From NCBI GenBank assembly GCA_963771075.1, contig CAVYSE010000002.1, forward strand, positions 14,714 through 78,713: a stretch of 64,000 nucleotides of DNA, in the 5' to 3' direction. The notes under the pieces were generated by a model. That model ran no database searches and had not been told where the DNA came from. It worked only from the letters and a program-made list of their open reading frames with translations. The position numbers and the translations under genes were made by a program. Origin of the DNA: a candidate division FCPU426 bacterium (GTDB lineage Bacteria; Oederibacteriota; Muellerivitia; Muellerivitales; Muellerivitaceae). Of the stretch, positions 58-20,517 are shown piece after piece (the stretch's first letter is position 1; each line of letters starts with the position of its first letter).

Positions 58-868
58 CTAATCAGCTAATGGTTGATTCAACTGATGCCAGCATTTTTTG
101 AACGGTTTTGTATTAACCCTTTCAAAATCGGATACAAACCATTGAGGTTGTTCTTCAGGTTTAATTCTTGTTTGAAGGGAACGAATCATTCGGACCGCAT
201 TTCCAGGCGTTGCGGAAACGATCAGTTTTAGGGCGCGGGGAAAACCACCTTTTAAATTCTCGGTCATTCTTTGGAGGATTACGTCGTTGTAGTGATGGTT
301 CTCAAGCTCAAGTGCAAAACCAACTCTTCGGCCTTCAATATCTGCCTCGAAATAACCATCAGGTGTTCTTCTTCCTTTGCGGATTGGGGTTGGCCCCATT
401 GGAACGCCATCTTTCCTTGTTCAACTTTCCTTCCAGGTATTCCGCCTTAATGGATGGGGTGATTCCTGATCGCATCTCAAAATCCGAAACCCAAAAAATA
501 TCCTTAAGTTCTTCCAATGACTCGAATGTTATTCGGATCGTCTGAACCATAACGTCATGCTCTTTTTCATGGGTGTTGATCTTTACCGGATACTTGTTGC
601 TCCTCACCAATATCTTGTTATTTTCGTCCAAAGTTCTCAAAGCTCCCGCAGTTAAGAAGAAAAGGTTACTGTTCCCAATGGGTGTTTTTAGAACGTGAAG
701 AAGATCCCTTTCCGGGCTAGTGTACTTTTTAAGTATTTTGTAAGCGTTCCTGGAAGTCTGGTTGGGAAGGAATTTTTTATAAAATAATTCCGGTGTCGTA
801 AATTTATTGGAATGAATCCATACGAGATGTTCCATTTCTATATCAGTCATTGCTTTCAAAGCTTTCAA
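58..868 (-). pseudogene. replication-relaxation (Replic_Relax-like) family gene, split by an apparent frameshift into ORFs 359..868 (N-terminal part) and 58..399 (C-terminal part)
   Basis: The N-terminal ORF has a winged-HTH-like segment (TSRNAYKILKKY). The two ORFs overlap by 41 bp in different frames, and together (~270 aa) match the usual length of this family. The family call is from memory of the motif pattern, not from a search. Confidence 0.4.
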
Positions 869-2484
869 TGGACTTCTTCTTTCTTTATTTTTTTAGAATA
901 ACCTTCTCCCTTGGACAATATTTCCGTGTCAGGCATTGGTTCAACCTTCACCTTCTCTTTGATCGGGGTTTTCGCTTCTTCTTTTTTAGGGCTCGTTTTT
1001 GATTGAGTCTCAGCTTTGGGCAAAACAATCTTGTTGTATTGGTTGGCTTTTAAATGGTTGTCCCGAATCGGAACGCACCCCACATAATCAAATTCCCTAG
1101 GAGGCGGTTTGACTTCCTTGAGCTTCATCTTGAAAACTTTCGGACCTGAGACATAAACGATCCTGCACACCGCTTCCCCACGTTTCATTCCCCTCAAGTA
1201 ATTAGGATGAATAATAAACTCCTCATCCTGTTTTTCGGTCCGTCCCCTAGGCTGAGAGATACGGGTGTCATATGAATAAACGTCCTTCTTTGTGACTTTG
1301 GTCCCGAATATCGAAGCGAAGAAGTCCACCGTGTCTTTCTCAGTGATGTTCATCACGATTTTGTGGTTGGTGTTGGTGAGAATGTCGTCCTTGAATTCCT
1401 GGCTGACGGCCCCCAACTGGCCCAGGCTGTGGTGGGCTAGAAAGAAGCAAACATTGGCTTCCCTCCCTAAGGAAATAAGGTCATTGAGCCCCGGATAAGC
1501 GGCGGTATAGAACTCGTCCAAAAAGACGAAAAAAGGCCTTTCCGGCTTCTCAATAAGCCTCCGCCCAATAACCCCAGCCAAGTCAGTTAGGGCCGAAATA
1601 ATGACCGGTTTGGAGTCCTCCTGGTTTACCAGTGAAGAGGTTCCAAATAGGAATATCTGTTGTTTCTCAACCACATCCCTCATCTTGATATCCGGGTTCA
1701 GGGTATTAATAAGGGGTGACCATTCGCGGGTGGTGAAACGTGCCAATTTGCTGGTTAACCCTGAAAGATTAAGCTCCCTGTCCTTCTCCGACATATTGAC
1801 CCACTTTTCCAGGAAGTATTTCCCCGAGACGGTGTCCTCGTGTTTCCGGGCCAAGACTTTGATCGAATCGAACGACCTAATCTCGTTTGAGATAAGGTTC
1901 TGGTAATCCATCCTGGTGACGTGCTTGAACTCCAAGAAAAGAAGGTTGGTAAGGTTGCTCAAAACGTCGCTGGCTTGGTCCCGGTAATATTCCTGGGTCA
2001 CAGGGCCGTAAAAGATCGACTTCATGAGGCCATTGAAGACCTCGTCCGGTTTGTCCTTGAAATCCGGGTTGTAAGTCTGGCTCCTTTTCACATCTGCCAA
2101 ATCAAAATACTTGAGGTCATGGAGCCGTCCGTATTTCTGGGCGTAATAGGGAATGTGTTTGTTGTAGTTGGATTTGGCGTCAAAAACGAACATCCCCAAA
2201 CCGTTCCTGATCCCCTGCTCAATCATGTGGTTGAAGATGTTGGTTTTTCCCATGCCGGAAGATCCGATGACCTCGGTGTGGTACTTGAGCAGTTCAGCAG
2301 GAATGAAAAACTTGTTTTCCGCATCCAGGTATAAAGAGAATTTTCCGCCTTCATGGCGGGGCGACTCGCCCGGATGTTCCGGGATATGCCTCATGAAGAA
2401 ATGAATGAAATAAATGCAGAAGCCGATCAGGATGGAAAGCCCCATCACCACATCCCCCGTGAACCCCTCGGTTCCCAGGAACAC
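865..2484 (-). CDS. type IV secretion/conjugation coupling protein-like ATPase (TraD/TraG/VirD4 family), GTG start, N-terminus possibly truncated
   Basis: Walker A motif GSSGMGKT and the C-terminal FFLAHHSLGQL motif typical of T4 coupling proteins. There is one N-terminal TM helix only. In-frame sequence upstream of the GTG encodes a further TM-like stretch (PLAPAVIALAFCHDFF) but is closed by a stop with no start codon. The gene abuts the relaxation-protein gene. Confidence 0.6.
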   Translation of the reverse strand: MFLGTEGFTGDVVMGLSILIGFCIYFIHFFMRHIPEHPGESPRHEGGKFSLYLDAENKFFIPAELLKYHTEVIGSSGMGKTNIFNHMIEQGIRNGLGMFVFDAKSNYNKHIPYYAQKYGRLHDLKYFDLADVKRSQTYNPDFKDKPDEVFNGLMKSIFYGPVTQEYYRDQASDVLSNLTNLLFLEFKHVTRMDYQNLISNEIRSFDSIKVLARKHEDTVSGKYFLEKWVNMSEKDRELNLSGLTSKLARFTTREWSPLINTLNPDIKMRDVVEKQQIFLFGTSSLVNQEDSKPVIISALTDLAGVIGRRLIEKPERPFFVFLDEFYTAAYPGLNDLISLGREANVCFFLAHHSLGQLGAVSQEFKDDILTNTNHKIVMNITEKDTVDFFASIFGTKVTKKDVYSYDTRISQPRGRTEKQDEEFIIHPNYLRGMKRGEAVCRIVYVSGPKVFKMKLKEVKPPPREFDYVGCVPIRDNHLKANQYNKIVLPKAETQSKTSPKKEEAKTPIKEKVKVEPMPDTEILSKGEGYSKKIKKEEVH

Positions 2485-2931
2485 CCCAAAAAAGTCATGG
2501 CAAAAGGCTAGGGCTATAACGGCAGGGGCTAAAGGCTAAGAGGTGGGTCATTCGGACATGCTTCTCAAACATGTAGAGAAAACCAACGGAAAGGGCCGAA
2601 ACCGTGTCAAAGGGGGTGACGGACGGGGAAATGATCCCCAGAGACCTCTAGGGTGAATTTAAGGCCCGAATAGACCCCAAATCCGCCTAAGACAGGGGGA
2701 GTGTGCTTCTCAATCGCTTTAAAAAAGTTTCCAAAATTCATGGCAGGTTTTTCTAGTGTTGTATTTGAAACACTCGAACACTTTTACTTTTATGCCTGTC
2801 GCCCGATGTTGGCAAGTTCATAAAAGACCAAAGGTTAAGAAAAACCAGGAGTCTTATTCGTGTCTTATTCAGTCATGTTTAGCCCTGGATTGCCAAGGAT
2901 GACCATGGTTGTCCATGGATACAAAAAAAGC

Positions 2932-2985
2932 CTTTGTCCGCTAGACTCGCTAAAGTCGTTGCAAACAAAGGCTTTTGAAATTGGC
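2932..2985 (-). terminator. Rho-independent terminator downstream of tRNA-Asp (hairpin GCCTTTG...CAAAGGC flanked by A7 and T4, so potentially bidirectional)
   Basis: Inverted repeat at 2939-2945 and 2975-2981 with flanking A-run and T-run. It lies 23 bp beyond the tRNA 3' end on the minus strand. Confidence 0.4.
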
Positions 2986-3007
2986 CTGTGACATTGATTT
3001 TTTAAAA

Positions 3008-3085
3008 TGGCGGGGTTGACGGGGCTCGAACCCGCGACCTCCTGCGTGACAGGCAGGCGCTCTAACCAAGCTGAGCTACAACCCC
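3008..3085 (-). tRNA. tRNA-Asp (anticodon GTC) with genomically encoded 3' CCA
   Basis: The reverse complement reads GGGGTTGTAGCTCAGCTTGGTTAGAGCGCCTGCCTGTCACGCAGGAGGTCGCGGGTTCGAGCCCCGTCAACCCCGCCA. It has a 7-bp acceptor stem (GGGGTTG/CAACCCC), D-loop AGCTCAGTTGGTTAGAGC-like, anticodon stem CCTGC/GCAGG with loop CTGTCAC, and T-arm GCGGGTTCGAGCCCCGT. Confidence 0.85.
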
Positions 3086-3220
3086 TCGCAGGAAAGGAAA
3101 AAGCAGGTAGGAAAAACCTCGCTTTGTCACTGCCTCTTTGGGAGGCCCCCTTAAGGGAAGCGAAACGGAGGGGTATCGTACTGGGGCAAGGGTCTTTCGT
3201 CAAGCGTCTGTAAGAAGTCC

Positions 3221-5218
3221 TTAGACCTTTTGGGGGACTGGGGCCATTTGCTCATGTGGGGGTTTTAAAAGCTTGAATTTCTTCACGCCGAACCGGGAAA
3301 CGGTATTCTTCAGCACGCTTTTGGCCGAGAGCTTGTAGACGTAATCGCCCTCGCCCATCTTGCCCGCGTCCCAAATGGAAACGGCATAAGCGCCGCCTTC
3401 CTTTTTTTCCTCCATCTTGTCCACCAGGGCCCCGGAGGCGTCAAAAATCTCCACCATCACGACGCAGTCTTCCTTCAAGAAATAATAGAAGCGAACCGGA
3501 CCAGTGAGGGTTGGGTTCGGGAAAAGCCCCACGTCCTCGATGAAGGTGGAAAATGTTTCCTGGGAAGAAGCCACCGCGATGTCCCGCAAGGCCAAAACGG
3601 GAAACTGGTCGCTCGACAACCGGACCTCATACCGCCCCTCGGGCAGATCGGGGAACTTGAACTGCCCCTTCGCGTCCGTGATGGCCACGGCTCCGTCCCG
3701 GTGGGCCCGGATCACCTCCACCTTGGCTCCCACCACCGGGGTGGTGCCGTCCTTGCGCAGGAACACACCCGCCAGGCTTCCCATGCGCCGGATCACGATG
3801 CGCCTTTTCGCCGTCAAGCTCCCGAGTTTGCCCCTTTTCGCGGCGGGCACCACGTGCAGGTACCAGACGCCCTCGGCGATATCCTTGAACTCGATCGTTT
3901 TTTCCGTGGTAAAGGGGTCCTCTTCCGTGACCCTTTCCACCTCATTGGGGCTCAAGCGGTAATGCACACCGCCACTTTTGAAAGAACCGTCATGGCGGTC
4001 CTCCAATAGAAAGACCGGATGGTGCTGGTTGACCGGTTCGTCCTCCCGGGGGTGGGTCGGGCTCTGCAAAACGGGAGGCGGCATTTCGCCCGCCGCGGTC
4101 ATCACTTTCGCGTGGGCCGGGTCGGAGAGGTTCCCCGCCCTGTCCCGGACCATCACGTGCAAATACCAAACGCCGGGCTCGGGGGCTTTCACCGTGATTT
4201 CATTCTCAGTTATTCGTTGGGCGTCCGCCAGTCCGGGCCGGGTCTCCGGTATTTGGTCAAAGAGGTAATAGTAGGCGTCAAAACCCGAGAGCTTGTTGGC
4301 CGTAAAAAGGTTGAACTGGATCTTGGACGAGGCGTACCAGCACTGGGAATCGGGATGGCTGGAGGAGGTCACCTGGGGCGGCGCGGGCCTTTCCACGTCG
4401 ATTTTCAAACGGTAATGGGCCGATTCCTCGCTTACATTTCCCGCCCGGTCCTTCGCCACCAGGTGGAAATACCAGACCCCGCTTTGCAGGTCCTTGAGTT
4501 CCATGCGCCTGCCGTCCGTGAAGGCCCGGTCCTCCAGGGGCGGGCGGGAATTGGGGCTTTGGTCGATCAGGGTGTAATAACCCGCGATGCCGGTGGCGTC
4601 CGCCGGGGCGTCCCACAGAATCACCGCCAGGGGATTCGAGCTCCAATCCTCGCTTGAGTGGGAAGGGCTGGAAAGCACCGGCACCCCGACCCCGTGGTCC
4701 GAAATACAAACGGAAACCTGGTTCCCCTCGTGCTGTTCGTTTCCCATGCGGTCCACGGCCTGCACGCAATAATAGTAGGCCACACTATCCCTTAATCCTT
4801 CGCCCGGATCCAGGAACGAAACTCCCTTCACTTCCCCGTCCATGGATATCTTTTCCCGGGGCGCTCCCTCGATCCACCGGTAGATTCGGTAAAAGTCGGT
4901 ACCCGAAAGGGTGTCCACCACCGGCGTCCACTTCAACTCGACATCCCCGCCCGCCTTGGGGGTGGCTTTCAATTGGGCCACCGGGGGAGGGGGGAAATAT
5001 CCACCATTACCGAGGCCATTTCCTTGGGCGACCATTCTTCCTGGTTGCCCGCCCCGTCCCGGGCACGGCAACGGAAGGCGTAACGCACCCCGTCCTGGGC
5101 CTGGAAGGTCCCGCCCCGGTCGGCGACCCTTGTCAAGAAGTCCGCCCAGTTGGCTTCGCCCGCCTTCACCTGCACGTCGTAGGATTCGATCCCGCTCAAG
5201 TCGTCCACGCTTTCCCAT
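3221..5218 (-). CDS. C-terminal part of the same giant repeat protein (3 more modules, carboxypeptidase-regulatory-like domain, C-terminal beta-sandwich sorting-type domain)
   Basis: The first ~90 codons of this ORF are G/R/P-rich read-through. Genuine coding sequence resumes in the FN3/module pattern (VWYFHLVAKDRAGNVS, VWYLHVMVRDRAGNLS). It overlaps the upstream ORF by 250 bp in another frame, so the two are read as one gene broken by a frameshift or an assembly error in repeats. Confidence 0.55.
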   Translation of the reverse strand: MGKRGRLERDRILRRAGEGGRSQLGGLLDKGRRPGRDLPGPGRGALRLPLPCPGRGGQPGRMVAQGNGLGNGGYFPPPPVAQLKATPKAGGDVELKWTPVVDTLSGTDFYRIYRWIEGAPREKISMDGEVKGVSFLDPGEGLRDSVAYYYCVQAVDRMGNEQHEGNQVSVCISDHGVGVPVLSSPSHSSEDWSSNPLAVILWDAPADATGIAGYYTLIDQSPNSRPPLEDRAFTDGRRMELKDLQSGVWYFHLVAKDRAGNVSEESAHYRLKIDVERPAPPQVTSSSHPDSQCWYASSKIQFNLFTANKLSGFDAYYYLFDQIPETRPGLADAQRITENEITVKAPEPGVWYLHVMVRDRAGNLSDPAHAKVMTAAGEMPPPVLQSPTHPREDEPVNQHHPVFLLEDRHDGSFKSGGVHYRLSPNEVERVTEEDPFTTEKTIEFKDIAEGVWYLHVVPAAKRGKLGSLTAKRRIVIRRMGSLAGVFLRKDGTTPVVGAKVEVIRAHRDGAVAITDAKGQFKFPDLPEGRYEVRLSSDQFPVLALRDIAVASSQETFSTFIEDVGLFPNPTLTGPVRFYYFLKEDCVVMVEIFDASGALVDKMEEKKEGGAYAVSIWDAGKMGEGDYVYKLSAKSVLKNTVSRFGVKKFKLLKPPHEQMAPVPQKV

Positions 5219-8200
5219 TCCAGGGCCACCTGGGTACGGTCCAAGAGGGGAGGAAGTGTCTTCATGCGGGTTCGAGGAGGCGCCGAGTCGATCTGGATCA
5301 CGTAGTGGGCCGCTTCCCGGCTCAGGTTCCCCACCTTATCCTTGGCCACCAGGTGGAAATAATAACGCCCATCCTTCAAGGCCGGAGTCGTGAGGGAATT
5401 TTCAGTGGTCCACTTTCCCTGGTTGGGCCCGGGTATGGTGTGGGGTTGGGTATCCAGCGAAACGTAATAACCTTCCACCCCGGAAAGTTCCCGGGGCGCT
5501 TCCCAAACCAGTTTGGCGCTGTTGGCCTTGACCCAGGTGTTGGGCGGGTGGGTGGGGCTCTTGACCATCGGGGCTTGGGCTTCCGAATCCACCTGGATTT
5601 TGAAACGCACACAGGGCCCGATGTTTCCCGCCCGATCCTTGGCGATTACGTGCACGAACCAGGTTCCGTCTCCCGGCAAGGTCACCACCGTGCCCCTCGT
5701 GGAGGTAAAGGCCATTTCTTTCAACACCGGCGTCCAGGATTCTTCTTGGTTCGAGAAAAAATAATAGCCCTCGATCCCCGAAAGGTCTTCCGGGTCTTTC
5801 CAAACCATTTCCACCCGGCGGGCGGCGTACCACTTTTCGGGTTGGGGATGGGTGACCGAGGTTACTTCAGGCGCGCCCGTGGTGGTATCCAGCCTGACCC
5901 GGTAAAGGGCAGGATCCTTGCCGATATTTCCCGCGGCATCTTGGGCCACAACGCTCAAGGTAAAGAGCCCGTCGCGGGGTATGTCCACGGAAATTTCATT
6001 TCGCTCGGTGAAATTGGCTTTCCCCGGTTCCGGAATGGGTTTGGGGTCCTCGGAGAAAAGGTAATAAAAACCCGTGACGCCCGACAGGTCGTCCGGCGCG
6101 GTCAGCTTGAACTGGGCCTTCGGGTTGACGGTCCAACGCTCCGGGTCGGGGTGGGTCTCGCTGGTGATAAAGGGCCGGGCCACTTCCGAATCCACATGGA
6201 TGGGATAATGCACGGCCTTCCAATCGGTGTTGCCCGCCTTGTCCTTGGTGGTGATATGAAAATACCAGAGGCCGTCGTCCGTCACTTCGAAGGAGACGGA
6301 CCGCTGGGTCGTGAAAAGCGAGTTGTGGTCGTTGGGAACCGTGTCGGCCTTGCGATCGATGTTGTAGTAGTAGCCCTCGATGCCGGAATGGTCGAAAGGG
6401 TCTTCCCATTGAATCTCGACCCGGCGGCTCTTGTACCACCGTCCCGCCTCTCCGTGGGTGGTGGAAACCACTTGGGGCGGGCTGGCCAGGGTATCCAGGC
6501 AGATCTTAAAGTGGGCCGCGTTGGGCGAGAGGTTCCCGGCCCTATCCTTCGTGCGCGCGTGGGCGTACCAGATGCCGTCCGACAGGTCCTGGAAGGAAAG
6601 CTGGGGCCGCAGGGTATAGAGAGCCGTCTCTTCCTGGGGGAGGGTCTGGGGCTCCTGATCCAAAACATAATAATAGCCTTCCACGCCCGACATGTCGGGA
6701 GGCGGCTGGATGAGAATCTCCACCTGGTTGGTGGGGTACCACTGCTCCTGCTGGGGGTGAGTGGGGGAGGAAAGGGTGGGCGCCAAGGCCTTGGTGTCGA
6801 TCTTGAGACTCAGGTGGGCGGCCGTCACCCCGACATTGCCCGCCAAGTCCTGGGTGGAGACATGGACGAACCAGAGGCCGTCTTCCAACGGTCCCAAAGA
6901 GATCCGGGAATCGGAAACAAATTGACCATTGCCCGGCCCAGGCACGGTCAGGGCCTCCCGGTCCGCCTTCACGAAATAGCCCTTCACCCCCGAAAGGTCC
7001 TCGGGTTCGGACCAGGTGACCACGGGCGAAGGGTTAGCCACCCACTTTTCACGGTCCGGATGGGTGTCGCTGTAAATTTCCGGCGGGGGCGGGGCTAGGG
7101 TGTCAATCTGGACCTGGTAATGGGTGGCCCGGTTGCCAACGTTGCCCGCGTCATCCATGCCCACCACGTGCAGGTACCAGACCCCGTCCGTCACCGGCAG
7201 GATCAAGCGTCGTTCTTCCGTATAGATGGCCTGGGGAGGCTGGGGAAGGGTTTCCGGATTTTGGTCCAGCTGGTAGAAATAGCCAGCCAAAGGCGAGGAG
7301 GGATGCAGTAAAAATTCGACTTGATGCGTGCTTTCCCATTTGTCGTGTTCCTCGTGCGTTGGGCAGGAAATGTCGGGAGGCAGGACCGGCGGGGTCGTGA
7401 AGGAAGAAACCTGGCTGGCCACCAGGGAGCTCGAACGGTTGGCGCTGACCACCCGGTACCGGTATTCGGTTTCCGCCCTCAAGTCGCTTAAGGCAAATCG
7501 GTGCCTAAGTCTCGCGGATTTGTCTGCCACCGAGCGGGACAGTTCTTCCCGATCCCCCGCGATCCCGTAAAAAAGCTCGGAAGCGGCCGAAAGGTCGGTG
7601 GTCCAGGTCAACAGGGCGGATGAGGAGGTCAGTTTTTCCACCTGGAGTTCGGTGATCTCGGGGATGCCCGCCATGTCGAAGGTGGAGCGCAAAAGTGCCC
7701 CCCCGTTTTCGGTGGCGGCGTAGAGATAATCGTTGAAGACCGTAAAGGCCCGCACCCCCTCCTCGTCGCTGGAGTAGGCGGAAACCCAGTTCTCGCCGTC
7801 ATGGGTCTTGAGGATACGGCCCGAGTTGCCGGTGCCCGCGTAGAGGGCGTTCTCGTAAACTTCCATGCAATAGAGGTTCAACTCCCGGCTGGTTTCATAG
7901 ACCGCCTGCCAATCCCGCCCGTTCTGGGTGCGGAGGATCTTGATGCCCTTGGGACTGGAGGTGCCCGCGTAGAGGGCGCCGTTGAACTCGTGGAAGCATT
8001 GGATGAAATGCTGACCGGTCGCGGAAACCTCTTCCCAGTTAAGCCCGTCATGGGTGGCGAAGATCAGTCCGCTGGGATAGGTTCCCGCGTAAAGCCGGTT
8101 CTTAAAGATACCAAAACATGTGACGGCGACTTCGCTCAGGATGCCCACGGTGTTCCATTGCAGGCCGTCGAAGGCCACCACCCTTCCCTGCGAGCTGGTG

Positions 8201-8796
8201 CCCGCGTAGAGGCGGTTCTTGAAAACCGTCATGGCGTGCACCCGGTCTTCCCGGGTCATGAAGGCCTCCCGCCAGGACTCGCCATCGAGGGTGGCATAGA
8301 TGGACCCGTTCAGGTTTGTGCCGGCAAAGAGCGATGGTTCGGAACCCGGAGGAGCGTAGGAACACAGGCAGTAGATCTGTGTGGTCAGGTCCCCCGCCCC
8401 CTCGGCGCTGTCTCCCGTGGGGCTGAAAAACTTCGGTTGTTCTTTAGTGACCTGGACGTTCTTGAAACTGCCAGGGGTACCACTGGTGGATCGCAGGACG
8501 CTGTCCCGCCCGGTGGCCACATAAAGGGAGCCCTTGTACTCGGCCAAGGCATAAAGGGTCGGGATTTCAGGAAATTTTTCCTGGGTGCCGAAAAAAGCCG
8601 GAGAAGCGGTGGAAAGGTGAAGGTCAATGACGGTTTTAAGGCGTTCCATCGCCTCTTTACTGTTTTTCCCCTGGGCCTGAACCCCGGGAAGGAGGGGGCA
8701 TCGGGCCAGGATCTGCCCGTTGGCCTTGGTTTCCATTTCCACGGGAAGGTCGTAAGGAAAGGTTTTTCTCTGGATTTTGTCGTCTTTTTTCAGCAA
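4969..8796 (-). CDS. giant repeat-containing surface/adhesin-like protein, N-terminal part (beta-propeller-like LYAGT repeats, FN3-like segment, 7 tandem ~100-aa modules); continues in ORF 3221..5218 after an apparent frameshift
   Basis: Tandem modules carry recurring motifs THPxxxxW, DLSG[IV]xGYYY, DGxWY[FL]HV and KD[KR]AGN. Five blades resembling two-component-regulator propeller repeats (NRLYAGT...). The first ~55 aa resemble a HicB/UPF0150 antitoxin fold (PYDLPVEMETKANGQILARCPLLPGVQAQGKNSKEAMERLKTVIDLHL). No signal peptide is recognisable. Confidence 0.6.
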   Translation of the reverse strand: MLKKDDKIQRKTFPYDLPVEMETKANGQILARCPLLPGVQAQGKNSKEAMERLKTVIDLHLSTASPAFFGTQEKFPEIPTLYALAEYKGSLYVATGRDSVLRSTSGTPGSFKNVQVTKEQPKFFSPTGDSAEGAGDLTTQIYCLCSYAPPGSEPSLFAGTNLNGSIYATLDGESWREAFMTREDRVHAMTVFKNRLYAGTSSQGRVVAFDGLQWNTVGILSEVAVTCFGIFKNRLYAGTYPSGLIFATHDGLNWEEVSATGQHFIQCFHEFNGALYAGTSSPKGIKILRTQNGRDWQAVYETSRELNLYCMEVYENALYAGTGNSGRILKTHDGENWVSAYSSDEEGVRAFTVFNDYLYAATENGGALLRSTFDMAGIPEITELQVEKLTSSSALLTWTTDLSAASELFYGIAGDREELSRSVADKSARLRHRFALSDLRAETEYRYRVVSANRSSSLVASQVSSFTTPPVLPPDISCPTHEEHDKWESTHQVEFLLHPSSPLAGYFYQLDQNPETLPQPPQAIYTEERRLILPVTDGVWYLHVVGMDDAGNVGNRATHYQVQIDTLAPPPPEIYSDTHPDREKWVANPSPVVTWSEPEDLSGVKGYFVKADREALTVPGPGNGQFVSDSRISLGPLEDGLWFVHVSTQDLAGNVGVTAAHLSLKIDTKALAPTLSSPTHPQQEQWYPTNQVEILIQPPPDMSGVEGYYYVLDQEPQTLPQEETALYTLRPQLSFQDLSDGIWYAHARTKDRAGNLSPNAAHFKICLDTLASPPQVVSTTHGEAGRWYKSRRVEIQWEDPFDHSGIEGYYYNIDRKADTVPNDHNSLFTTQRSVSFEVTDDGLWYFHITTKDKAGNTDWKAVHYPIHVDSEVARPFITSETHPDPERWTVNPKAQFKLTAPDDLSGVTGFYYLFSEDPKPIPEPGKANFTERNEISVDIPRDGLFTLSVVAQDAAGNIGKDPALYRVRLDTTTGAPEVTSVTHPQPEKWYAARRVEMVWKDPEDLSGIEGYYFFSNQEESWTPVLKEMAFTSTRGTVVTLPGDGTWFVHVIAKDRAGNIGPCVRFKIQVDSEAQAPMVKSPTHPPNTWVKANSAKLVWEAPRELSGVEGYYVSLDTQPHTIPGPNQGKWTTENSLTTPALKDGRYYFHLVAKDKVGNLSREAAHYVIQIDSAPPRTRMKTLPPLLDRTQVALEWESVDDLSGIESYDVQVKAGEANWADFLTRVADRGGTFQAQDGVRYAFRCRARDGAGNQEEWSPKEMASVMVDISPLPRWPN

Positions 8797-8949
8797 AGCT
8801 TCACCTTAAAGGGGTGTTGAACCGCTAGGGTTAACAGACAGCTAGGGCGATTATTTTAGTCAAACAGGGGGGGTGTTGACAGCACCTTAGTGACAAATGG
8901 GGCGGCTTCCACGTGGAAAAAGGGCGGAATGGTACAATGATCCGCTCTT

Positions 8950-9352
8950 CACCCCAGGGTTTCCCAAGAGGGCCTTCGATTTACGCATGAAACCAAAAAA
9001 TATACGCCCCAATCAAAACCCACGAATACAAGAAGACCTTGCCCTACATCAAGCCGGAAGGTTGGCGGAAGCGGTCGAGTTGATGAAGTAGTTGTTGAAT
9101 TTCTTCTCGAAAAACACCCAGCTATTGACCCACCTGGGCACCTATACCTCCAGCAAGGCAACACCGAGCAAGGTGTTTGATTGCTGAAAAAATTCCTGTA
9201 AATCACGCCCCAACAACCCATGGCCCACTTGAATCTCGCGAACGGCATGGTGTCCTTAAAAAAGTTCGAGGACGCCCTCGTCCAGTATGACCTGGCGCTG
9301 GTTATTTCGGAGGTGGTTCGTCGAATACAAGGTGAATTGAAATCAGATCCAT
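8950..9352 (+). pseudogene. degraded TPR-repeat gene fragments (multiple frame changes and stops) immediately beside the IS30 element
   Basis: TPR-like peptides appear in three different frames: MKPKNIRPNQNPRIQEDLALHQAGRLAEAVELMK; LLEKHPAIDPPGHLYLQQGNTEQG; AHLNLANGMVSLKKFEDALVQYDLALVI. They are interrupted by stops. Confidence 0.3.
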
Positions 9353-9365
9353 AAAAATCAGGAAG

Positions 9366-10414
9366 CTGAATTCAACCAGTAAGTGCAACACCTAGGCGAA
9401 AGACTTGCTCCGGCGTTTTGAAGCCAAGACACTTGCGGGGACGACCATTGAGAATCCGTTCCACGCGCCTGACTTGAGCTGGGGTTATGTTAGCAAAATC
9501 GGTTTTCTTCGGATAGAAGCGTCGAATCAAACCGTTGGTGTTTTCCACGGTGCCTTTTTCCCAACTGTGGAATGGCAGGCAGAAGAAAGACCTAGTGCCC
9601 AAAACGGCATTGACCTGGAGGTGTTCGACGTTCTCCGAGCCGTTGTCATAGGTGATGGTCCTGCGGAGTCCCTTGGAAAATTGACCGAGGCGACGATTGA
9701 TAGCCATACGGGTATTTGACGCGGATTTCTGGGGCAGCCAAGCAAGTTTTACCAGTCGGCTCTTTCTTTCGACCATGACCAAGATAGAAGCTTTGCTCTG
9801 CCTGGAAATGATAGTGTCCATCTCCCAGTGGCCGTATTGGTCCCGTGCCTTGACGATGGCAGGGCGTTGGGTGATTGAAACGCGTTGTGGGATATGGCTT
9901 TTGCGGTGATTGTGGGAATGCCATCGCCGAAGTCGTTTTCGATGGGAGCGAGCCAAGAAGGGAATGAGATGCCGAGCTTTGCTATAGATGAACTGGTAGA
10001 CGGCCTCGTGGGAAATGGAGATTTTGGATTTCTCCTGGTGAAGTTGACCGGCGATTTGTTCGGGTGAAAGACCTTGCCGAAGTTTACGCAAGACATACCG
10101 GCGCAGTTCGGGTTTCTTGAGCCGAAAGTGAGTTCGAGAGATCTGGTTGCGCAAGATGGCCCGATCGTGAGCCCTGGCAGGAAGATACCGGCCGGGACGT
10201 AAGGGAGGGGCGTTGCGCTTCAACTCTCGGGAAACGCTGGAAACATCACGGCCAAGGCGTTTGGCGATTTTTCGCAGGGAAAGGCCTTGAGCCTTCCAAA
10301 TAGAGATTTTTTCACGTTCGGCTAACAATAGATGCCTGTAGGATTGTTTCATGAAACTTAGGATAACCCCCGGGTTCTGCCGGGCCTAAGTGTTGCACTT
10401 CGTTATTGAACTGG
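9366..10414 (-). mobile_element. IS30-family insertion sequence (~1.05 kb) with imperfect terminal inverted repeats
   Basis: Inverted repeat cores AGTGCAACACCTAGGC (9381-9396) and GCCTAAGTGTTGCACT (10384-10399) match 15 of 16 positions, with weaker matches extending ~15 bp outward. They enclose a single transposase gene. Confidence 0.75.
9372..10352 (-). CDS. IS30 family transposase (N-terminal HTH, DDE/rve catalytic core)
   Basis: N-terminal HTH (SLRKIAKRLGRDVSSVSRELKRN) and the IS30-type HWEMD motif (usually HWEGD). The catalytic core includes TITYDNGSE. Length is 326 aa. Confidence 0.8.
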   Translation of the reverse strand: MKQSYRHLLLAEREKISIWKAQGLSLRKIAKRLGRDVSSVSRELKRNAPPLRPGRYLPARAHDRAILRNQISRTHFRLKKPELRRYVLRKLRQGLSPEQIAGQLHQEKSKISISHEAVYQFIYSKARHLIPFLARSHRKRLRRWHSHNHRKSHIPQRVSITQRPAIVKARDQYGHWEMDTIISRQSKASILVMVERKSRLVKLAWLPQKSASNTRMAINRRLGQFSKGLRRTITYDNGSENVEHLQVNAVLGTRSFFCLPFHSWEKGTVENTNGLIRRFYPKKTDFANITPAQVRRVERILNGRPRKCLGFKTPEQVFRLGVALTG

Positions 10415-10432: not shown

Positions 10433-11347
10433 TTATTTTGACAATACCGGCACGGTCACAATCAACGGTTTATATTCCTGGTTTTTTAAAACTATTTGAT
10501 CTCCAGGCATGAAATCCCATCCATCGGAATAGCCAAACTCAATAACACGATGCACATGTTTAAAAAGGGTAAAGCTTTTGCTCACACTAAGCGTTGGATT
10601 TGTGAAAGTGGCAGAAATTCTGAAAATTCGATTAGAAGTTCTTTTAAAAATCGCAACCAAGCCTTTGCTAAATAACGCTTTTCTATAGGTTATCTCTATT
10701 GGCAACAACGGGCGGGCATCAACATGGATTGTAGATTTGTTTACGATTGTTTGATTGGGATGCGTAGTAACGGAATTACATGCTTTTAGCAGAATGAAAA
10801 AACACAACAGAACAACAAAACCCTTTTTCGCATTTGATAACCTTGAAAACTTTGCGGCAATTTTTTTAATTACGGTTAGATCAAATCGATCTGCCGAGAC
10901 AACCGAATTAGGAAAACTCGCGTCTTCTTTAACTAAAAACTGCAAATTTTCTTTAACCAACAACTGAACAATTTCCTCACCATCAATTAACCGCATTGTC
11001 GTTTCTACACTTTTCGAATACTCTCTCGCCTCTTTTGAAAATGTCGACGTAGTAACGAAAACACCAAGCGAGTTTCTCCGGCCATGAAGAGCACCAACGA
11101 ATTTTTGTATTTCGGGCCGCCCAACCGTGTCTTCCCATCTTTTCGCCTGAAACAAAAGATCACCAAAACCTAACTTATCCAATTTCAAACTACCATCAAT
11201 GCCTCCATCTCCAGTTTGTCCCTCAACTTCTCCAATTTCGCTGTTATATATTTTTTTAAGGAAATCTAAAACAAACTGTTCGAATTCAGCGGGGGAAAGA
11301 CTTTTCAGGCGATTTAATAATTCTTCGTTTACCAATTTTTTCACCAA
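10433..11347 (-). CDS. Mrr-catalytic-domain (restriction endonuclease type IV fold) protein fused to a C-terminal region with one TM helix and a domain of unknown function
   Basis: N-terminal ~135 aa match the Mrr_cat pattern (GDGGIDG ... LFQAKRW ... VFVTTSTFSKEAREY ... LIDGEEIV). It lacks the usual Mrr N-terminal wHTH. Residues 180-195 (GFVVLLCFFILLKAC) are hydrophobic. The gene is markedly lower in GC than its neighbours. Confidence 0.5.
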   Translation of the reverse strand: MVKKLVNEELLNRLKSLSPAEFEQFVLDFLKKIYNSEIGEVEGQTGDGGIDGSLKLDKLGFGDLLFQAKRWEDTVGRPEIQKFVGALHGRRNSLGVFVTTSTFSKEAREYSKSVETTMRLIDGEEIVQLLVKENLQFLVKEDASFPNSVVSADRFDLTVIKKIAAKFSRLSNAKKGFVVLLCFFILLKACNSVTTHPNQTIVNKSTIHVDARPLLPIEITYRKALFSKGLVAIFKRTSNRIFRISATFTNPTLSVSKSFTLFKHVHRVIEFGYSDGWDFMPGDQIVLKNQEYKPLIVTVPVLSK

Positions 11348-14242: not shown

Positions 14243-16876
14243 TTAGTCTTCCACGATGAAGTTCTTCAATTTAGTCTTTTTCAGCAGTTCCTTCGAGGCT
14301 CTTTGCGCCGCGGCGTGGTCGGGATAATCCCCTACCCGGATCTTATAAAGGGGATAGGCCATATCCTCGGTCTTGACCTTCAAAACCTTGGGTTTATACC
14401 CGGCCTTTTCCAGCTGTTTAAGCGTTGGGGCCATAAACCGGGTCCGGCTGTAAACCCCGACCTGGATATGGAAAGGGGCCGCCGCGCTGATGGTATCGTC
14501 CGATTCCGCCTCTTCCTCACCGGTCGCCTGGATCGCGGGGGTGGGGTTCTCCGCCATAACCGTATTTCCCGCGGAAGCCGGGGCCGCTGGGACAACTGCC
14601 TCCGGAAGTTCGGTCGGGGTAGGCAGGGCCATCATCACAATGGGAGTCAGCTCGGGGTTGAGGCGCTCCATCGCGGACATCCTCTGAAGGGCATCCTCCG
14701 TTTCCAGTGCCCGGGGAAACTGGGTCGCCAGGGTGGCGTAAGCGGCGTGGGCCTGGGGTATCTTGGTTTCCAATTCATAAAGCCGCCCGAGGCGATAATA
14801 AACAAGGTTCATTTCCAAGAATTGGGGGTAGCGGTCCAGGACCTTCAGATATTGTTTCTCGGCCATGGGATAAAGCCTTAATTTGACATAGGTATTGCCC
14901 GCCCCCAGCAAGGCCTTGGGCGCCCAGGGACTGTCCGAGGCGTTGTCCGCCACCTTGATGAACTGGGCCATGGCTTCAGGGTATTTATTGAGGGAATAGA
15001 GGGAGCAAGCGTACCAGTAGCGGGCTTCAGGCGCGGAGGGGCTGTCAGGATGGGTCTTCAGGAATTCCTCGTAAGTATGCGCGGCGTCGCCATATTTATC
15101 CGCGAGATAATAACGGGCCCCCAGGTCCTTTTGGGCCTCCTCGCCTTCCGGTTTGTCGGAATACTGCTTGGCCAGTTCGGTGAATTGCTTGGTGGATTTG
15201 TTGAAATCCTGCTCCATTCGGGCCAGCATGAGCTTGGCCTGGGGGATCATCTGGTCCATGGGATGTTCGGCCACGAACTTGGAGAAGGAATCCCGGGCCT
15301 GGTCGTAGTTTTTCCGGTTGAAATAGTCCTTCGCCTTGTCGAAGAGGGATTGGGAATTATCCGCGACGGCCCCGATGGGGGTCGCGCCGGTCGTTTGGGC
15401 CATCAACATGGCCGGAGCCACAAGCAAGGCAAAGATTAACAAAAGCACGCCCACCCTTTGTCCGTACAGGCTGGCGATCTTGCTTTTTTCCACCTTTACT
15501 CGCACCTTGTCCCCGGCCTTCAAACCCTTCGCCGGAAAGACCACCGTCCGGTTTTGCCGGGTCTTGCCGTAATAGGCGCCAGGCGTCTTGTCCGCCGGGC
15601 CTTCCACCATGACCTCTTCCACGCGACCGACACGGGAAAGGTGCCGGTCGGCGGCGTGCTTCCAGGCCTTCTCGTTCAAGCGGGCCAGGCGTTCGTCCTT
15701 CACTTCCTCCGGCACCTGGTGAAGCATGCGGGCTGCGGGGGTTCCGAGCCTCGGGGAATACTTGAAACTATAGACCAGGTCGTAACGCACCTCATCCAAA
15801 AGCTTGAGGGTGCCCTCGAAATCCTCATCGGTCTCGCCTGGGAACCCCACGATCAGGTCGGTGGTAAGAGCCAGTTCGGGGATGGCCTTGTGAAGGGTTT
15901 CCACCCGGTTCAAGTAATGGGCCACGGTGTATTTTCGGTTCATGCGTTTCAAGACGGTGTCCGACCCGCATTGGACGGGAAGGTGGATCATCTCGCAAAC
16001 GCTGGGCGTCTCAGCCATGGCGGCCACCAAGTCGTCGGAAAGGTCCAGGGGGTGGGACGTCATGAACCGCACCCGCTCGATGCCCGGGACGGCCCCCACT
16101 TGGCGCAGAAGATCGGGGAAAGAAACCGGCCTCTCGTTGCTTAGGGCCAGCCCTGTTTCAATATTGTTTTTTTTGCGGGAACTGGGCTTGCCTAGTTGTC
16201 CATTTTCCGATTTTTGAATCGGTGAACTAGATAAGCCATAGGAATTCACGTTCTGGCCCAGAAGCATCACTTCCTTCACCCCCGCCTGGGCGATGCGGGT
16301 GACCTCGTCCAGGATGTCCTCGGGAGGGCGGGAAACTTCACGGCCCCGGGTGAAGGGAACCACGCAGAAGGTGCAGAACTTGTCACAGCCCTTCATGATC
16401 TCCACGAAGGCCCGGTGGGGGGCGGATAAACGATTAGGATCGTTCGCCGGGAAATAAGCGGGGTCAAAATCGGCCAGCACCTGGGGTCCCGCGCCCTGGG
16501 AGGCCTTGGCGATGGCCCCGACTGCCTTGGGATATTGGTCCGGCCCCAAAACCAGGTCCACCTGCGGGGCGCGGTCGATGATGTTTTCCTTGTGGCTGGT
16601 GGCCATACATCCCAACACCCCCAGGACCCGGCCGGGCTTGCCGTTTTTCCAGTCGGTCAGTTCCCCCAGGCGGGAAAAGATCTTGTCCTCGGCGTGCTGG
16701 CGCACCGAGCAGGTGTTGAAGAGGATGACGTCCGCCTGGGCGCTGTCAGGCGTCAGGGAGTAACCCTCTTGGATCAACAGGCCCGCGACATGGTCCGACT
16801 CGACCACGTTGGACTGGCAGCCCAATGTTTCGAGATAGACTTTTTTTTGCGGATGAGGATTTAAGGTGATTTCCAT
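14243..16876 (-). CDS. miaB: MiaB-like tRNA methylthiotransferase (radical SAM + TRAM) reading through, without a stop, into a TM helix, TPR repeats (YbgF/CpoB-like) and a C-terminal SPOR domain
   Basis: Residues 1-465: MTTase N-domain, radical SAM CxxxCxxC (GCDKFCTFC) and TRAM (DKVRVKVEKSKIASLYGQRVG). This is followed by VLLLIFALLVAPAMLMA (TM or signal-like), TPR/YbgF-like repeats, and PFHIQVGVYSRTRFMAPTLKQLEKAGYKPKV...YKIRVGDY (SPOR-like). There is also a ~25-aa low-GC insertion after NVNSYG relative to canonical MiaB. Confidence 0.75.
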   Translation of the reverse strand: MEITLNPHPQKKVYLETLGCQSNVVESDHVAGLLIQEGYSLTPDSAQADVILFNTCSVRQHAEDKIFSRLGELTDWKNGKPGRVLGVLGCMATSHKENIIDRAPQVDLVLGPDQYPKAVGAIAKASQGAGPQVLADFDPAYFPANDPNRLSAPHRAFVEIMKGCDKFCTFCVVPFTRGREVSRPPEDILDEVTRIAQAGVKEVMLLGQNVNSYGLSSSPIQKSENGQLGKPSSRKKNNIETGLALSNERPVSFPDLLRQVGAVPGIERVRFMTSHPLDLSDDLVAAMAETPSVCEMIHLPVQCGSDTVLKRMNRKYTVAHYLNRVETLHKAIPELALTTDLIVGFPGETDEDFEGTLKLLDEVRYDLVYSFKYSPRLGTPAARMLHQVPEEVKDERLARLNEKAWKHAADRHLSRVGRVEEVMVEGPADKTPGAYYGKTRQNRTVVFPAKGLKAGDKVRVKVEKSKIASLYGQRVGVLLLIFALLVAPAMLMAQTTGATPIGAVADNSQSLFDKAKDYFNRKNYDQARDSFSKFVAEHPMDQMIPQAKLMLARMEQDFNKSTKQFTELAKQYSDKPEGEEAQKDLGARYYLADKYGDAAHTYEEFLKTHPDSPSAPEARYWYACSLYSLNKYPEAMAQFIKVADNASDSPWAPKALLGAGNTYVKLRLYPMAEKQYLKVLDRYPQFLEMNLVYYRLGRLYELETKIPQAHAAYATLATQFPRALETEDALQRMSAMERLNPELTPIVMMALPTPTELPEAVVPAAPASAGNTVMAENPTPAIQATGEEEAESDDTISAAAPFHIQVGVYSRTRFMAPTLKQLEKAGYKPKVLKVKTEDMAYPLYKIRVGDYPDHAAAQRASKELLKKTKLKNFIVED

Positions 16877-20437: not shown

Positions 20438-20517
20438 GGTAAGGTCCCCTGGCTGAAAGTGACTGAGTGTCTCGTTAATATACGGGATGACCTTTTAGGG
20501 TGTCAAACCGGTGAAAA

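What the first reader, a model, noticed from the sequence alone, without database searches (positions are those of the whole stretch)
3221..8796. A ~1,900-aa repeat protein split by a frameshift, with ten tandem ~100-aa modules and a HicB-like N-terminus but no signal peptide
ORFs 4969..8796 and 3221..5218 overlap by 250 bp in different frames. Both carry the same module (THPxxxW / DLSGxxGYYY / DGxWYxHV / KD[KR]AGN), so they are one gene broken by an indel. The DNA-level tandem repeats at 5.3-7.3 kb make assembly error or slipped-strand variation plausible. The first ~55 residues (FPYDLPVEMETKANGQILARCPLLPGVQAQGKNSKEAMERLKTVIDLHL) look like a HicB/UPF0150 antitoxin domain. That domain is out of place in front of beta-propeller, Ig-like and sorting-domain architecture. 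No Sec signal is seen. Either a small HicB-like gene has been fused in-frame, or the true start is elsewhere.
Basis: partly seen in the sequence, partly recalled or inferred. Interest (0 to 1): 0.5.

Follow-up and report, generated by a model that had tools for sequence, protein, structure and literature searches.

The report
Giant HicB-capped surface-type protein, homopolymer frameshift
The two overlapping reading frames are one conserved 1,858-residue repeat protein of the uncultured bacterial group FCPU426, broken here only by a missing C in a run of Cs (probably a sequencing error); its real oddity is a conserved antitoxin-like (HicB) domain at the N-terminus where a secretion signal would be expected.

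Summary
ORFs 4969..8796(-) and 3221..5218(-) are one gene. The break is one missing C in a C7 tract, read as C6 at 4989-4994. An independent assembly of the same species (L093/P0314) carries the intact 1,858-aa gene. Inside the gene it differs by 17 substitutions and this single indel. About 38 of 50 related loci surveyed, from separate species, also have one uninterrupted ORF.

A second conserved gene in the window, an adenylate cyclase, is broken at another C6 tract (19859-19864). A homopolymer consensus error is therefore the most likely cause. A real strain-level slip is not excluded.

The break is not in the repeats. The ten ~100-aa modules share only 32% identity on average, and TRF finds no DNA tandem repeat.

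The N-terminal HicB/UPF0150-like domain is real, by family-wide Pfam hits, a profile search, and an AF2 model with Foldseek. It has been fused to a beta-propeller since before FCPU426, Goldbacteria and Firestonebacteria diverged. The start (mostly TTG) is conserved with a stop just upstream. There is no hicA partner and no hydrophobic signal peptide.

The C-terminus resembles a T9SS type A sorting domain. The export route is unresolved.

Verdict: the frameshift is ordinary and the domain architecture is modestly novel.

The parts
3221..8796 (-). One gene. After repair it is 1858 aa plus a stop. As assembled it is split into ORF A (4969..8796) and ORF B (3221..5218).
   Evidence: Intact twin P0314/L093 at 99.8% aa identity. 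Intact orthologues in L003-L064.
4989..4994 (-). Frameshift site. The window reads C6, whereas the same-species contig L093 and the closest species L013 read C7 (GATATTTCCCCCCCTCCCCCGGTG). The missing base puts a premature TGA at 4969..4971.
8853..8882 (-). Promoter-like site, CTGTCA-18 nt-TAAAAT. The same motif lies upstream of the orthologues in L093, L013, L014 and L037.
   Evidence: This is a consensus match plus conservation; function was not tested.
8794..8807 (-). Shine-Dalgarno-like AAGGTGA (8801..8807) and TTG start codon (8794..8796). An in-frame TAA lies at 8806..8808.
   Evidence: Read from the sequence. The start position is conserved in relatives, mostly as TTG.
8572..8757 (-). 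HicB/UPF0150-like N-terminal domain, residues about 14-75, with strands, a helix and a final strand in HicB-like order and a conserved LPG..G motif.
7681..8571 (-). Beta-propeller, residues about 76-372, with repeated LYAGT...DG..W blades and a weak DUF6242 / BNR-Ycf48-like signal.
   Evidence: Pfam and NCBIfam. AF2 model with pLDDT 88. Foldseek matches to propellers.
7393..7659 (-). FN3 domain 1, residues 380-468.
   Evidence: Pfam fn3 at 44.9 bits and Pur_ac_phosph_N at 34.5 bits.
5281..7371 (-). Modules 1-7 of the ~100-aa OmpL47-type / Big_13-like Ig-like repeat, residues 476-1172.
   Evidence: NCBIfam NF047446 at 64.1 bits (cutoff 40) and Pfam Big_13 at 87.7 bits (cutoff 27). Module alignment.
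4995..5280 (-). Divergent Big_13-like module, residues about 1173-1267. It ends in the SPPPP linker that contains the frameshift.
   Evidence: Best Big_13 stretch at residues 1124-1170 and the sequence following it. Alignment with relatives.
4703..4981 (-). FN3 domain 2, the first domain after the frameshift.
   Evidence: Pfam fn3 at 31.7 bits on the ORF B translation, residues 18-108.
3770..4666 (-). Modules 8-10 of the same ~100-aa repeat.
3557..3769 (-). CarboxypepD_reg-like (prealbumin-fold) domain.
   Evidence: Pfam PF13620 at 37.1 bits, cutoff 32.3.
3317..3526 (-). C-terminal beta-sandwich resembling a T9SS type A sorting domain / FlgD Ig-like domain. It is followed by a tail of about 30 residues that runs to the stop at 3221.
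   Evidence: On the isolated C-terminal 115 residues, the window copy scores 21.1 bits on TIGR04183 (cutoff 23); 10 of 11 sequences in the C-terminal alignment match it, best E 5e-8. Pfam Por_Secre_tail matches 9 of 11.

Best explanation
This is a single, vertically conserved gene of candidate division FCPU426. It encodes a 1,858-aa multidomain protein.

Domain order:
- a HicB/UPF0150-like N-terminal domain
- a beta-propeller
- FN3
- seven OmpL47/Big_13-type Ig-like modules
- a Big_13-like module
- FN3
- three more modules
- a CarboxypepD_reg domain
- a T9SS-type-A-like C-terminal beta-sandwich

Shown: in this assembly the reading frame is interrupted only because a C7 run is read as C6.

Inferred: the most likely cause is a homopolymer-length error in the consensus sequence, not biology.

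Shown: the HicB-like domain is an integral, ancient part of the protein.

Inferred: it does not act as an antitoxin. It more likely serves as a fast-folding cap or interaction module on the propeller.

Inferred from domain content only: the protein is most likely a surface-exposed or extracellular binding (adhesin-like) protein, with an Ig-module stalk presenting the propeller.

Unresolved: how it leaves the cytoplasm. The whole family lacks a Sec-type signal peptide.
For: One gene:
- GC3 switches frame at about 5000.
- The repaired product is 1858 aa.
- About 38 of 50 related loci surveyed, from separate species, have one ORF of 1846-1959 aa, with a few longer forms of 2043-2488 aa.
- P0314, from GCA_052915985.1, is 1858 aa and differs from the repaired product at 4 residues.
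- At DNA level the gene differs from L093 by 17 substitutions, all within 6760-7881, plus one indel, C6 versus C7.
- The closest species, L013, also reads C7-T-C5.

Error rather than biology:
- A second conserved gene, a HAMP/adenylate cyclase with an N-terminal sensor-like region, is split at another C6 run (19859-19864). Relative L036 has C5 there, and L036 and L026 read through in one frame.
- No substitution lies within 1.7 kb of the indel on either side.

HicB-like domain:
- Of 9 family N-termini, 9 hit UPF0150 and 7 hit HicB_lk_antitox.
- A family profile hits HicB in the PDB (6g1c, E 0.01).
- The AF2 models give a HicB-like strand-helix-strand order.
- The top 13 Foldseek PDB matches are all HicB/UPF0150; 6g1c aligns at rmsd 0.8 A over 47 residues.
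- A profile search of 1.84 billion proteins gave 7770 hits. Beyond the family these are 60-150-aa proteins; all eight of that size tested are bona fide Pfam HicB_lk_antitox members, and two 369-406-aa hits tested also carry the domain.

No signal peptide:
- The maximum Kyte-Doolittle(12) score in the first 120 residues is 0.9-1.7 in 38 full-length homologues (L063, which runs into upstream non-coding translation, scored 0.1). Four other window proteins with N-terminal hydrophobic segments, three of them signal- or lipoprotein-like, score 2.3-3.1.
- An in-frame stop lies just upstream of a conserved start.

Surface-type content: NF047446 at 64 bits, Big_13 at 88 bits, FN3, CarboxypepD_reg, and a T9SS-like C-terminal domain. 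OmpL47 is a surface-exposed Leptospira protein (PMC2698987).
Against: - No reads were available, so an assembly error cannot be told apart from a genuine slip in one strain. The truncated 1275-aa product is what the public record of this contig encodes.
- I do not know which sequencing platform produced this contig.
- A surface location is inferred from domain families only.
- The lack of a signal peptide argues against the ordinary Sec-then-T9SS route.
- The window's own C-terminal domain and HicB-like domain both score below the curated cutoffs.
- No T9SS machinery genes were looked for in the genome.
Confidence: 0.6

Rival explanations
1. The frameshift is a genuine, recent inactivating mutation in this strain. 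The gene would then be a pseudogene, or would yield a 1,275-aa fragment lacking the C-terminal third and the sorting-type domain.
For: The sequence as deposited encodes the truncated product. The strain differs from L093 by real substitutions elsewhere. IS30 and Mrr insertions next to the gene show that the locus is in flux.
Against: The window holds a second frameshift at another C6 run in an unrelated conserved gene, which is unusual for a genome whose other long ORFs are intact. No substitution lies within 1.7 kb of the indel. GC3 stays coding-like downstream, so there is no decay.
Confidence: 0.25
2. The poly-C run is a contingency tract. Slipped-strand mispairing would switch expression of a surface protein on and off (phase variation).
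For: A homopolymer lies inside a surface-type gene. Both C6 (window) and C7 (L093) occur in the same species at 99.3% DNA identity. Relatives carry C7-C8 runs at the same Pro linker (L013, L014, L022, L023).
Against: The tract is short. In most relatives the PPPP linker uses mixed codons, with a longest C run of 3-5, so the tract is not conserved. The other C6 frameshift is in a cyclase gene, not a typical contingency gene. No within-sample length variation could be examined.
Confidence: 0.08
3. A programmed -1 ribosomal frameshift, or transcriptional slippage, on the C run produces the full-length protein from two frames.
For: A -1 slip of tRNA-Pro on TCC-CCC-C would recreate exactly the consensus DISPPPPV (reasoned from the sequence).
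Against: Every orthologue, including the 99.8%-identical twin, is in a single frame. No slippery heptamer or stimulatory structure is conserved.
Confidence: 0.01
4. The two ORFs are separate genes, and the HicB-like part is a separate small antitoxin gene mis-joined to the next gene.
For: None beyond the raw ORF calls.
Against: Single ORFs in relatives span both junctions. No stop or restart separates the HicB-like domain from the propeller in any homologue. The AF2 model runs continuously from the domain into the propeller at high confidence. There is no hicA neighbour.
Confidence: 0.01

Closest known systems
HicB antitoxin N-terminal domain / UPF0150 family (Pfam PF15919, PF21748; structures 6g1c, 6g26, 6hpb, 2dsy, 2yzt)
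   Same: Same small strand-helix-strand fold and the same LPG..G motif. Homology is supported by a profile search and by Foldseek.
   Different: Here the domain is the first ~75 residues of an 1,858-aa protein. It has no C-terminal DNA-binding domain and no adjacent hicA. The window copy scores below the Pfam gathering cutoff (20.5 versus 27.3 bits).
T9SS type A cargo proteins of Bacteroidota (C-terminal sorting domain, TIGR04183 / PF18962)
   Same: A C-terminal ~70-residue beta-sandwich with PNP and G.Y.Y motifs and a basic last strand. 10 of 11 sequences in the C-terminal alignment match TIGR04183.
   Different: No N-terminal Sec signal peptide anywhere in the family, although known T9SS cargo needs one to reach the periplasm (my own knowledge of the pathway). 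The window copy is just below cutoff, and a tail of about 30 residues follows the domain. Presence of T9SS genes in FCPU426 was not tested.
Leptospira OmpL47-type domain proteins and Big_13 Ig-like repeat adhesins
   Same: The ~100-aa modules match NF047446 (64 bits, cutoff 40) and Big_13 (88 bits, cutoff 27). OmpL47 is surface-exposed (PMC2698987).
   Different: Ten modules are combined with a propeller, FN3 domains and a HicB-like cap. The organism is an unrelated free-living peat/soil lineage.
Giant type I-secreted repeat adhesins with an N-terminal retention module (LapA, MpIBP type; from my own knowledge)
   Same: Very long Ig-like repeat stalk, no Sec signal, and a folded N-terminal domain.
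   Different: No RTX repeats or T1SS-type C-terminus were detected. No ABC transporter or membrane-fusion protein genes lie next to the gene in either lineage.
Homopolymer-tract contingency (phase-variable) surface genes
   Same: A poly-C run inside a surface-type ORF, with +/-1 length difference between near-identical strains.
   Different: The tract is short and not conserved. A similar +/-1 change also breaks an unrelated gene in the window, which fits a technical cause better.

Membership tests
HicB_lk_antitox / UPF0150 domain family | Sequence match to the Pfam models at or above the gathering score | tested here: inconclusive
   The window N-terminus scores 20.5 bits on UPF0150 against a cutoff of 27.3. 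However, 9 of 9 family N-termini hit UPF0150 and 7 of 9 hit HicB_lk_antitox (best E 1.7e-6). The family profile also retrieves small proteins that pass the Pfam cutoffs, at E 1e-10 to 1e-14.
HicB_lk_antitox / UPF0150 domain family | HicB N-domain fold (three strands, a helix, a fourth strand) | tested here: met
   AF2 models. The top 13 Foldseek PDB matches are all HicB/UPF0150, at probability 0.99-1.00, with rmsd 0.8-2.5 A over 45-51 residues.
HicAB type II toxin-antitoxin system | An adjacent hicA toxin gene | tested here: not met
   ORFs between the gene and the IS30 element have no Pfam hit. In L005, L011, L021 and L025-L027, mutS abuts the gene. In Goldbacteria-type loci the neighbours are POR subunits and a GNAT.
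HicAB type II toxin-antitoxin system | A small antitoxin with a C-terminal DNA-binding (RHH/HTH) domain | tested here: not met
   The domain runs directly into a beta-propeller within an 1,858-aa protein.
T9SS type A cargo | C-terminal type A sorting domain (TIGR04183 / PF18962) | tested here: inconclusive
   The window copy scores 21.1 bits against a cutoff of 23. 10 of 11 sequences in the C-terminal alignment match, best E 5.3e-8. Pfam Por_Secre_tail matches 9 of 11, best E 1.3e-6.
T9SS type A cargo | N-terminal Sec signal peptide | tested here: not met
   No hydrophobic segment in the first 120 residues of the window protein or of 39 full-length homologues. The test was hydropathy only; no dedicated predictor was run.
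T9SS type A cargo | T9SS machinery (SprA/Sov, PorV, PorU, GldKLMN) in the same genome | not tested
OmpL47-type / Big_13 Ig-like repeat proteins | Domain match above the curated cutoff | tested here: met
   NF047446 at 64.1 bits (cutoff 40). PF19077 Big_13 at 87.7 bits (cutoff 27).
Phase-variable contingency locus | Tract length varies within a population, and the tract is maintained | tested here: inconclusive
   C6 (window) versus C7 (L093) at 99.3% DNA identity. The tract is not conserved among relatives, and no reads were available.
Programmed ribosomal frameshift gene | The frameshift and slippery site are conserved in orthologues | tested here: not met
   All intact orthologues read through in one frame.
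T1SS repeat adhesin with N-terminal retention module | RTX or T1SS C-terminal signal, and adjacent ABC / membrane-fusion protein / TolC genes | tested here: not met
   No RTX-type hit in Pfam or NCBIfam. The flanking genes are mutS, tRNA-Asp and mobile genes, or POR, GNAT, Wzy_C-TPR and pur genes.

The most novel reading that the evidence does not exclude
The conserved HicB-like domain plus propeller replaces the signal peptide because this family leaves the cell by a Sec-independent route. In this reading the rapidly folding N-terminal HicB-like/propeller head stays behind as a plug or anchor, as the retention module of type I-secreted giant adhesins does, or it docks on a dedicated partner. 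The Ig-module stalk and the T9SS-like C-terminal domain would be threaded outward. That would be a new export or anchoring logic for a sorting-domain protein, and a new, non-antitoxin use of the HicB fold.
Probability: 0.1. Interest if true: 0.7.

Novelty: new variant of a known kind. Interest (0 to 1): 0.35.

Why it matters
For the assembly: the 'split' gene should be annotated as one gene. The same window holds a second homopolymer frameshift, which warns that other apparent pseudogenes in this MAG may be consensus errors.

For biology: an almost unstudied phylum-level lineage keeps a ~1,860-aa protein next to mutS. That protein joins a toxin-antitoxin-type HicB fold to an otherwise extracellular-looking architecture, and it has no signal peptide. 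If it is exported, the route is not the textbook Sec-then-T9SS path. If it is not exported, propeller/FN3/Ig-repeat/sorting-domain architectures cannot be read automatically as surface proteins. Either outcome would refine how such giant proteins are annotated in uncultured bacteria.

Tried and rejected
- Exact look-up of ORF A and of a neighbouring protein in the look-up of encoding contigs returned nothing, so the source contig's own gene calls could not be read.
- The first genome-contig scan with the single protein found no relative. The alignment-based scan worked.
- L001 (P0007) and L002/L035 (P0004) looked like further frameshifted or truncated copies. L001 is riddled with broken genes throughout, and L002 switches to an opposite-strand gene after residue ~330. 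I treated both as assembly noise, not as evidence of recurrent frameshifting.
- L028, L036 and L059 are also truncated in 'MFD' MAGs. I recall these being long-read assemblies, but did not verify it here.
- The distribution of G/C homopolymer lengths did not separate the window from short-read or long-read relatives.
- The other overlapping ORF pairs in the window (26.8 kb, 61.6 kb and others) are ordinary adjacent genes, not frameshifts.
- Foldseek on the whole N-terminal model returned only generic propellers.
- Flagellar genes near the P0007 homologue in L001 suggested a link to flagellar export. That neighbourhood is not conserved in other Goldbacteria-type loci, so I dropped the idea.
- Two proteins with T9SS-like C-terminal endings (window 44246..45526 and an L006 ORF) did not reach E 1e-4 on T9SS models, so I make no claim that the lineage uses such sorting domains widely.
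- Literature searches found nothing on this fusion or on secretion systems in FCPU426.


Full report
**The observation**

On the minus strand, ORF A (4969..8796, 1275 aa, TTG start) and ORF B (3221..5218, 665 aa) overlap by 250 nt in different frames. Third-position GC follows frame A down to about 5050 and frame B from about 4975.

At the switch the sequence is GAT ATT TCC CCC CTC CCC CGG TGG CCC AAT TGA. It contains a C6 run at 4989-4994. Adding one C gives ...EMASVMVDISPPPPVAQLKATPKAGGDVELKWTP... and a single open frame of 1858 codons.

Both halves carry the same ~100-aa module. I count ten: seven upstream of the break and three downstream. A Big_13-like module and an FN3 domain separate the two groups.

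**The break does not come from the repeats**

- The modules share 21-43% amino-acid identity, 32% on average.
- Tandem Repeats Finder reports nothing in 2500-9500.
- The repeat finder sees only short stretches of 60-80% identity at a 303-nt period.
- The break lies in a Pro-Pro-Pro-Pro linker, outside the ten repeats.

**It is one gene**

Metagenome contigs at 49-80% identity span the junction in one frame. A scan of species-representative genomes returned 80 loci. In about 38 of the 50 closest, the gene is one uninterrupted ORF. Most are 1846-1959 aa, and a few are 2043-2488 aa.

The decisive result came from the cluster look-up. The truncated 1275-aa product shares its 90% cluster with P0314, an 1858-aa protein from another assembly (GCA_052915985.1). 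P0314 differs from my repaired protein at 4 of 1858 residues and reads DISPPPPVAQLKAT across the site.

At DNA level, window 2402-8795 and that contig (L093) are 99.3% identical. Inside the gene there are 17 substitutions, all between 6760 and 7881, and one indel: C6 in the window versus C7 in L093. The closest other species, L013, has the same string with C7.

**Why the frame is broken**

A frame-switch scan of the whole window flagged one other pair of ORFs with a long overlap. These are 19487..20494 and 18808..19938 on the minus strand. The downstream ORF carries HAMP and an adenylate-cyclase domain. GC3 switches frame at about 19900. The join ...EHATYLPP|GIKPLGGE... falls on another C6 run, at 19859-19864.

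Relatives L036 and L026 encode this protein in one frame. L036 has C5 where the window has C6.

So two unrelated conserved genes in 64 kb are each broken by a +/-1 change in a C run, while the other long ORFs are intact. No substitution lies within 1.7 kb of the first indel.

My estimates for the cause:

| Cause | Probability |
|---|---|
| Homopolymer-length consensus error | about 0.65 |
| Real strain-level slip | about 0.25 |
| Phase variation | about 0.08 |
| Programmed frameshifting | effectively excluded |

Phase variation is not excluded, but most relatives code the linker with mixed codons. Programmed frameshifting is excluded by the in-frame orthologues. Without reads the first three cannot be separated.

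**The N-terminus**

The window's own Pfam hit to UPF0150 is sub-threshold: 15.8 bits in the full protein and 20.5 bits on the isolated 79 residues, against a cutoff of 27.3. The family evidence is consistent:

- All nine N-termini tested hit UPF0150, and seven hit HicB_lk_antitox.
- One homologue carries a precomputed PF15919 hit, and JGI names another a 'HicB family nuclease'.
- A family profile finds HicB structures in the PDB (6g1c at E 0.01; 6g1n, 2yzt, 2dsy).
- AF2 models give strands at 18-23, 29-32 and 40-43, a helix at 46-63 and a strand at 69-74. The 384-residue model has pLDDT 88 and the isolated domain 72.
- The top 13 Foldseek PDB matches of the isolated domain are all HicB/UPF0150. 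6g1c aligns at rmsd 0.8 A over 47 residues.
- A profile search of 1.84 billion representative proteins gave 7770 hits at E <= 0.001. After the family itself, the best are proteins of 60-150 aa at E 1e-10 to 1e-14. All eight of that size tested pass Pfam's HicB_lk_antitox or UPF0150 cutoffs, and two 369-406-aa hits tested also carry the domain.

**The fusion is old and the start is real**

Homologues down to 33-37% identity keep the domain joined to the propeller with no stop between. These include Goldbacteria-type MAGs, MAGs labelled 'Spirochaetia', and Firestonebacteria MAGs.

Each has an in-frame stop within a few dozen codons upstream, and a conserved start at (M/L)KKDDKIQKK. The start codon is TTG in the window and most FCPU426 loci, and ATG or GTG in others. 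In the window, AAGGTGA lies 4 nt upstream of the TTG.

A promoter-like CTGTCA-18-TAAAAT at 8882..8853 coincides with a motif that is also present upstream of the orthologues.

**No antitoxin context**

There is no hicA. The small ORFs between the gene and the IS30 element have no Pfam hit. In several relatives mutS ends 30-200 nt before the gene. In others the spacer holds unrelated cargo: an acyltransferase, a TPR protein and, judging by eye from the predicted sequences, toxin-antitoxin-like ORFs.

In Goldbacteria-type loci the conserved neighbours are 2-oxoacid:ferredoxin oxidoreductase subunits, a GNAT, a zinc-ribbon protein, a Wzy_C-TPR protein, and genes matching the Formyl_trans_N and AICARFT/IMPCHase families (PurN- and PurH-like).

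**No signal peptide**

| Measure | This family | Comparison proteins in the window |
|---|---|---|
| Highest 12-residue Kyte-Doolittle mean, first 120 residues | 1.07 (window); 0.9-1.7 in 38 full-length homologues | 2.3-3.1 in four proteins with N-terminal hydrophobic segments, three of them signal- or lipoprotein-like |
| Highest 19-residue mean over the whole protein | 1.15 (window) | not computed |

The 19-residue value means no transmembrane segment is present. One further locus, L063, runs into upstream non-coding translation and scored 0.1. More distant Elusimicrobia proteins with a similar propeller lack the HicB-like domain. Two of them have hydrophobic N-termini.

**The rest of the protein**

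- A propeller with LYAGT...DG..W blades.
- FN3 domains.
- Modules matching the NCBIfam OmpL47-type domain (64 bits, cutoff 40) and Pfam Big_13 (88 bits, cutoff 27).
- CarboxypepD_reg (37 bits, cutoff 32).
- A C-terminal domain that aligns with the T9SS type A sorting-domain pattern. It matches TIGR04183 in 10 of 11 sequences in the C-terminal alignment. The window copy scores 21.1 bits against a cutoff of 23. It matches Pfam Por_Secre_tail in 9 of 11.

The intact orthologue in L013 shows the same Pfam content. OmpL47 itself is a surface-exposed Leptospira protein (PMC2698987).

**Interpretation**

The domain content is that of a surface or extracellular binding protein. That is an inference. 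It conflicts with the absence of a signal peptide, which known T9SS cargo needs (my own knowledge of the pathway).

I could not test whether FCPU426 has a T9SS. I found no secretion genes next to the gene in either lineage.

The HicB-like domain fails the defining context of an antitoxin: no toxin partner, no DNA-binding domain, and not a small protein. I therefore read it as a structural or interaction module on the propeller.

The most novel reading left open is a Sec-independent export or anchoring route in which the folded N-terminal head is retained. I give it about 0.1.

**Taxon and locus**

Record titles of the closest genomes name candidate division FCPU426. One paper places the FCPU426 16S cluster with Goldbacteria (PMC7031533).

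The gene lies downstream of mutS in 28 loci, including a few duplicate or partial contigs. It lies upstream of tRNA-Asp.

In the window, an IS30-type transposase (HTH_38 + rve) and an Mrr-type endonuclease sit between mutS and the gene, in a low-GC stretch.

**Verdict**

Its central inference, one gene broken by an indel with a HicB-like N-terminus and no signal, holds. Its proposed causes do not: the break is not due to repeat slippage, the fusion is not recent, and the start is not misplaced.

The frameshift is ordinary and probably technical. The conserved architecture is a modestly novel variant of giant repeat surface-type proteins.

Noticed in passing
window 19859-19864 (ORFs 19487..20494 and 18808..19938, minus strand): A second frameshift at a C6 run splits a conserved HAMP/adenylate cyclase gene that also has an N-terminal sensor-like region. 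Relative L036 has C5 at this site, and L036 and L026 read through in one frame.
   Followed up: yes
window 9372..10352 (-), 10433..11347 (-), 8897..9091 (+): An IS30-type transposase (HTH_38 + rve) and an Mrr_cat restriction-endonuclease-like gene lie in a low-GC stretch between mutS and the gene. A 64-aa ORF at 8897..9091 resembles the N-terminus of the 622-aa TPR protein found in this spacer in L013, so it is probably a truncated remnant. In relatives the mutS-gene spacer ranges from about 0.1 to 6 kb and holds different cargo.
   Followed up: partly
window 58..2484 (-) and tRNA-Asp 3008..3085 (-): Beyond tRNA-Asp lies a lower-GC element encoding a TrwB/TraD-type coupling protein (865..2484) and two small ORFs. 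Copies at 94-98% amino-acid identity sit at the same position in L006, L014 and L037. The big gene in those loci is only 64-82% identical, which suggests a recently spreading integrative element.
   Followed up: partly
window 8796 boundary; L093 1-358: Against the same-species contig L093, 99.3% DNA identity ends abruptly at the start codon. Upstream, only the promoter-like motif (CTGTCA-18-TAAAAT, 8882..8853) is shared. The window's 5' region resembles L014, while L093's resembles L013 and L037. This suggests recombination at the gene's 5' edge.
   Followed up: partly
window 6760-7881: All 17 substitutions between the window gene and L093 cluster in 1.1 kb (end of the propeller, FN3, modules 1-2). 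None lie in the other 4.4 kb. This is a mosaic pattern that could reflect a recombination tract.
   Followed up: no
window 38246..39835 (-): Group II intron reverse transcriptase/maturase (TIGR04416, 422 bits).
   Followed up: no
window 14243..16876 (-): An 877-aa protein in which MiaB (tRNA methylthiotransferase) is fused to a YbgF/BamD-like TPR C-terminal half. Some relatives show only the MiaB half matching.
   Followed up: no
L039 7173-9977 and 15588-20903 (and 13-17 other Goldbacteria-type loci): In the Goldbacteria-type lineage the orthologue sits in a conserved same-strand block: three 2-oxoacid:ferredoxin oxidoreductase subunits and a GNAT upstream; a zinc-ribbon protein, a Wzy_C (O-antigen ligase-like)-TPR protein, a Formyl_trans_N (PurN-like) gene, DUF2007 and an AICARFT/IMPCHase (PurH-like) gene downstream.
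   Followed up: partly
L062, L064 (2430-aa relatives): These more distant members keep the HicB-like domain and the propeller, but end in a different C-terminus (…LQWPVLTFARLP) that is not T9SS-like.
   Followed up: no
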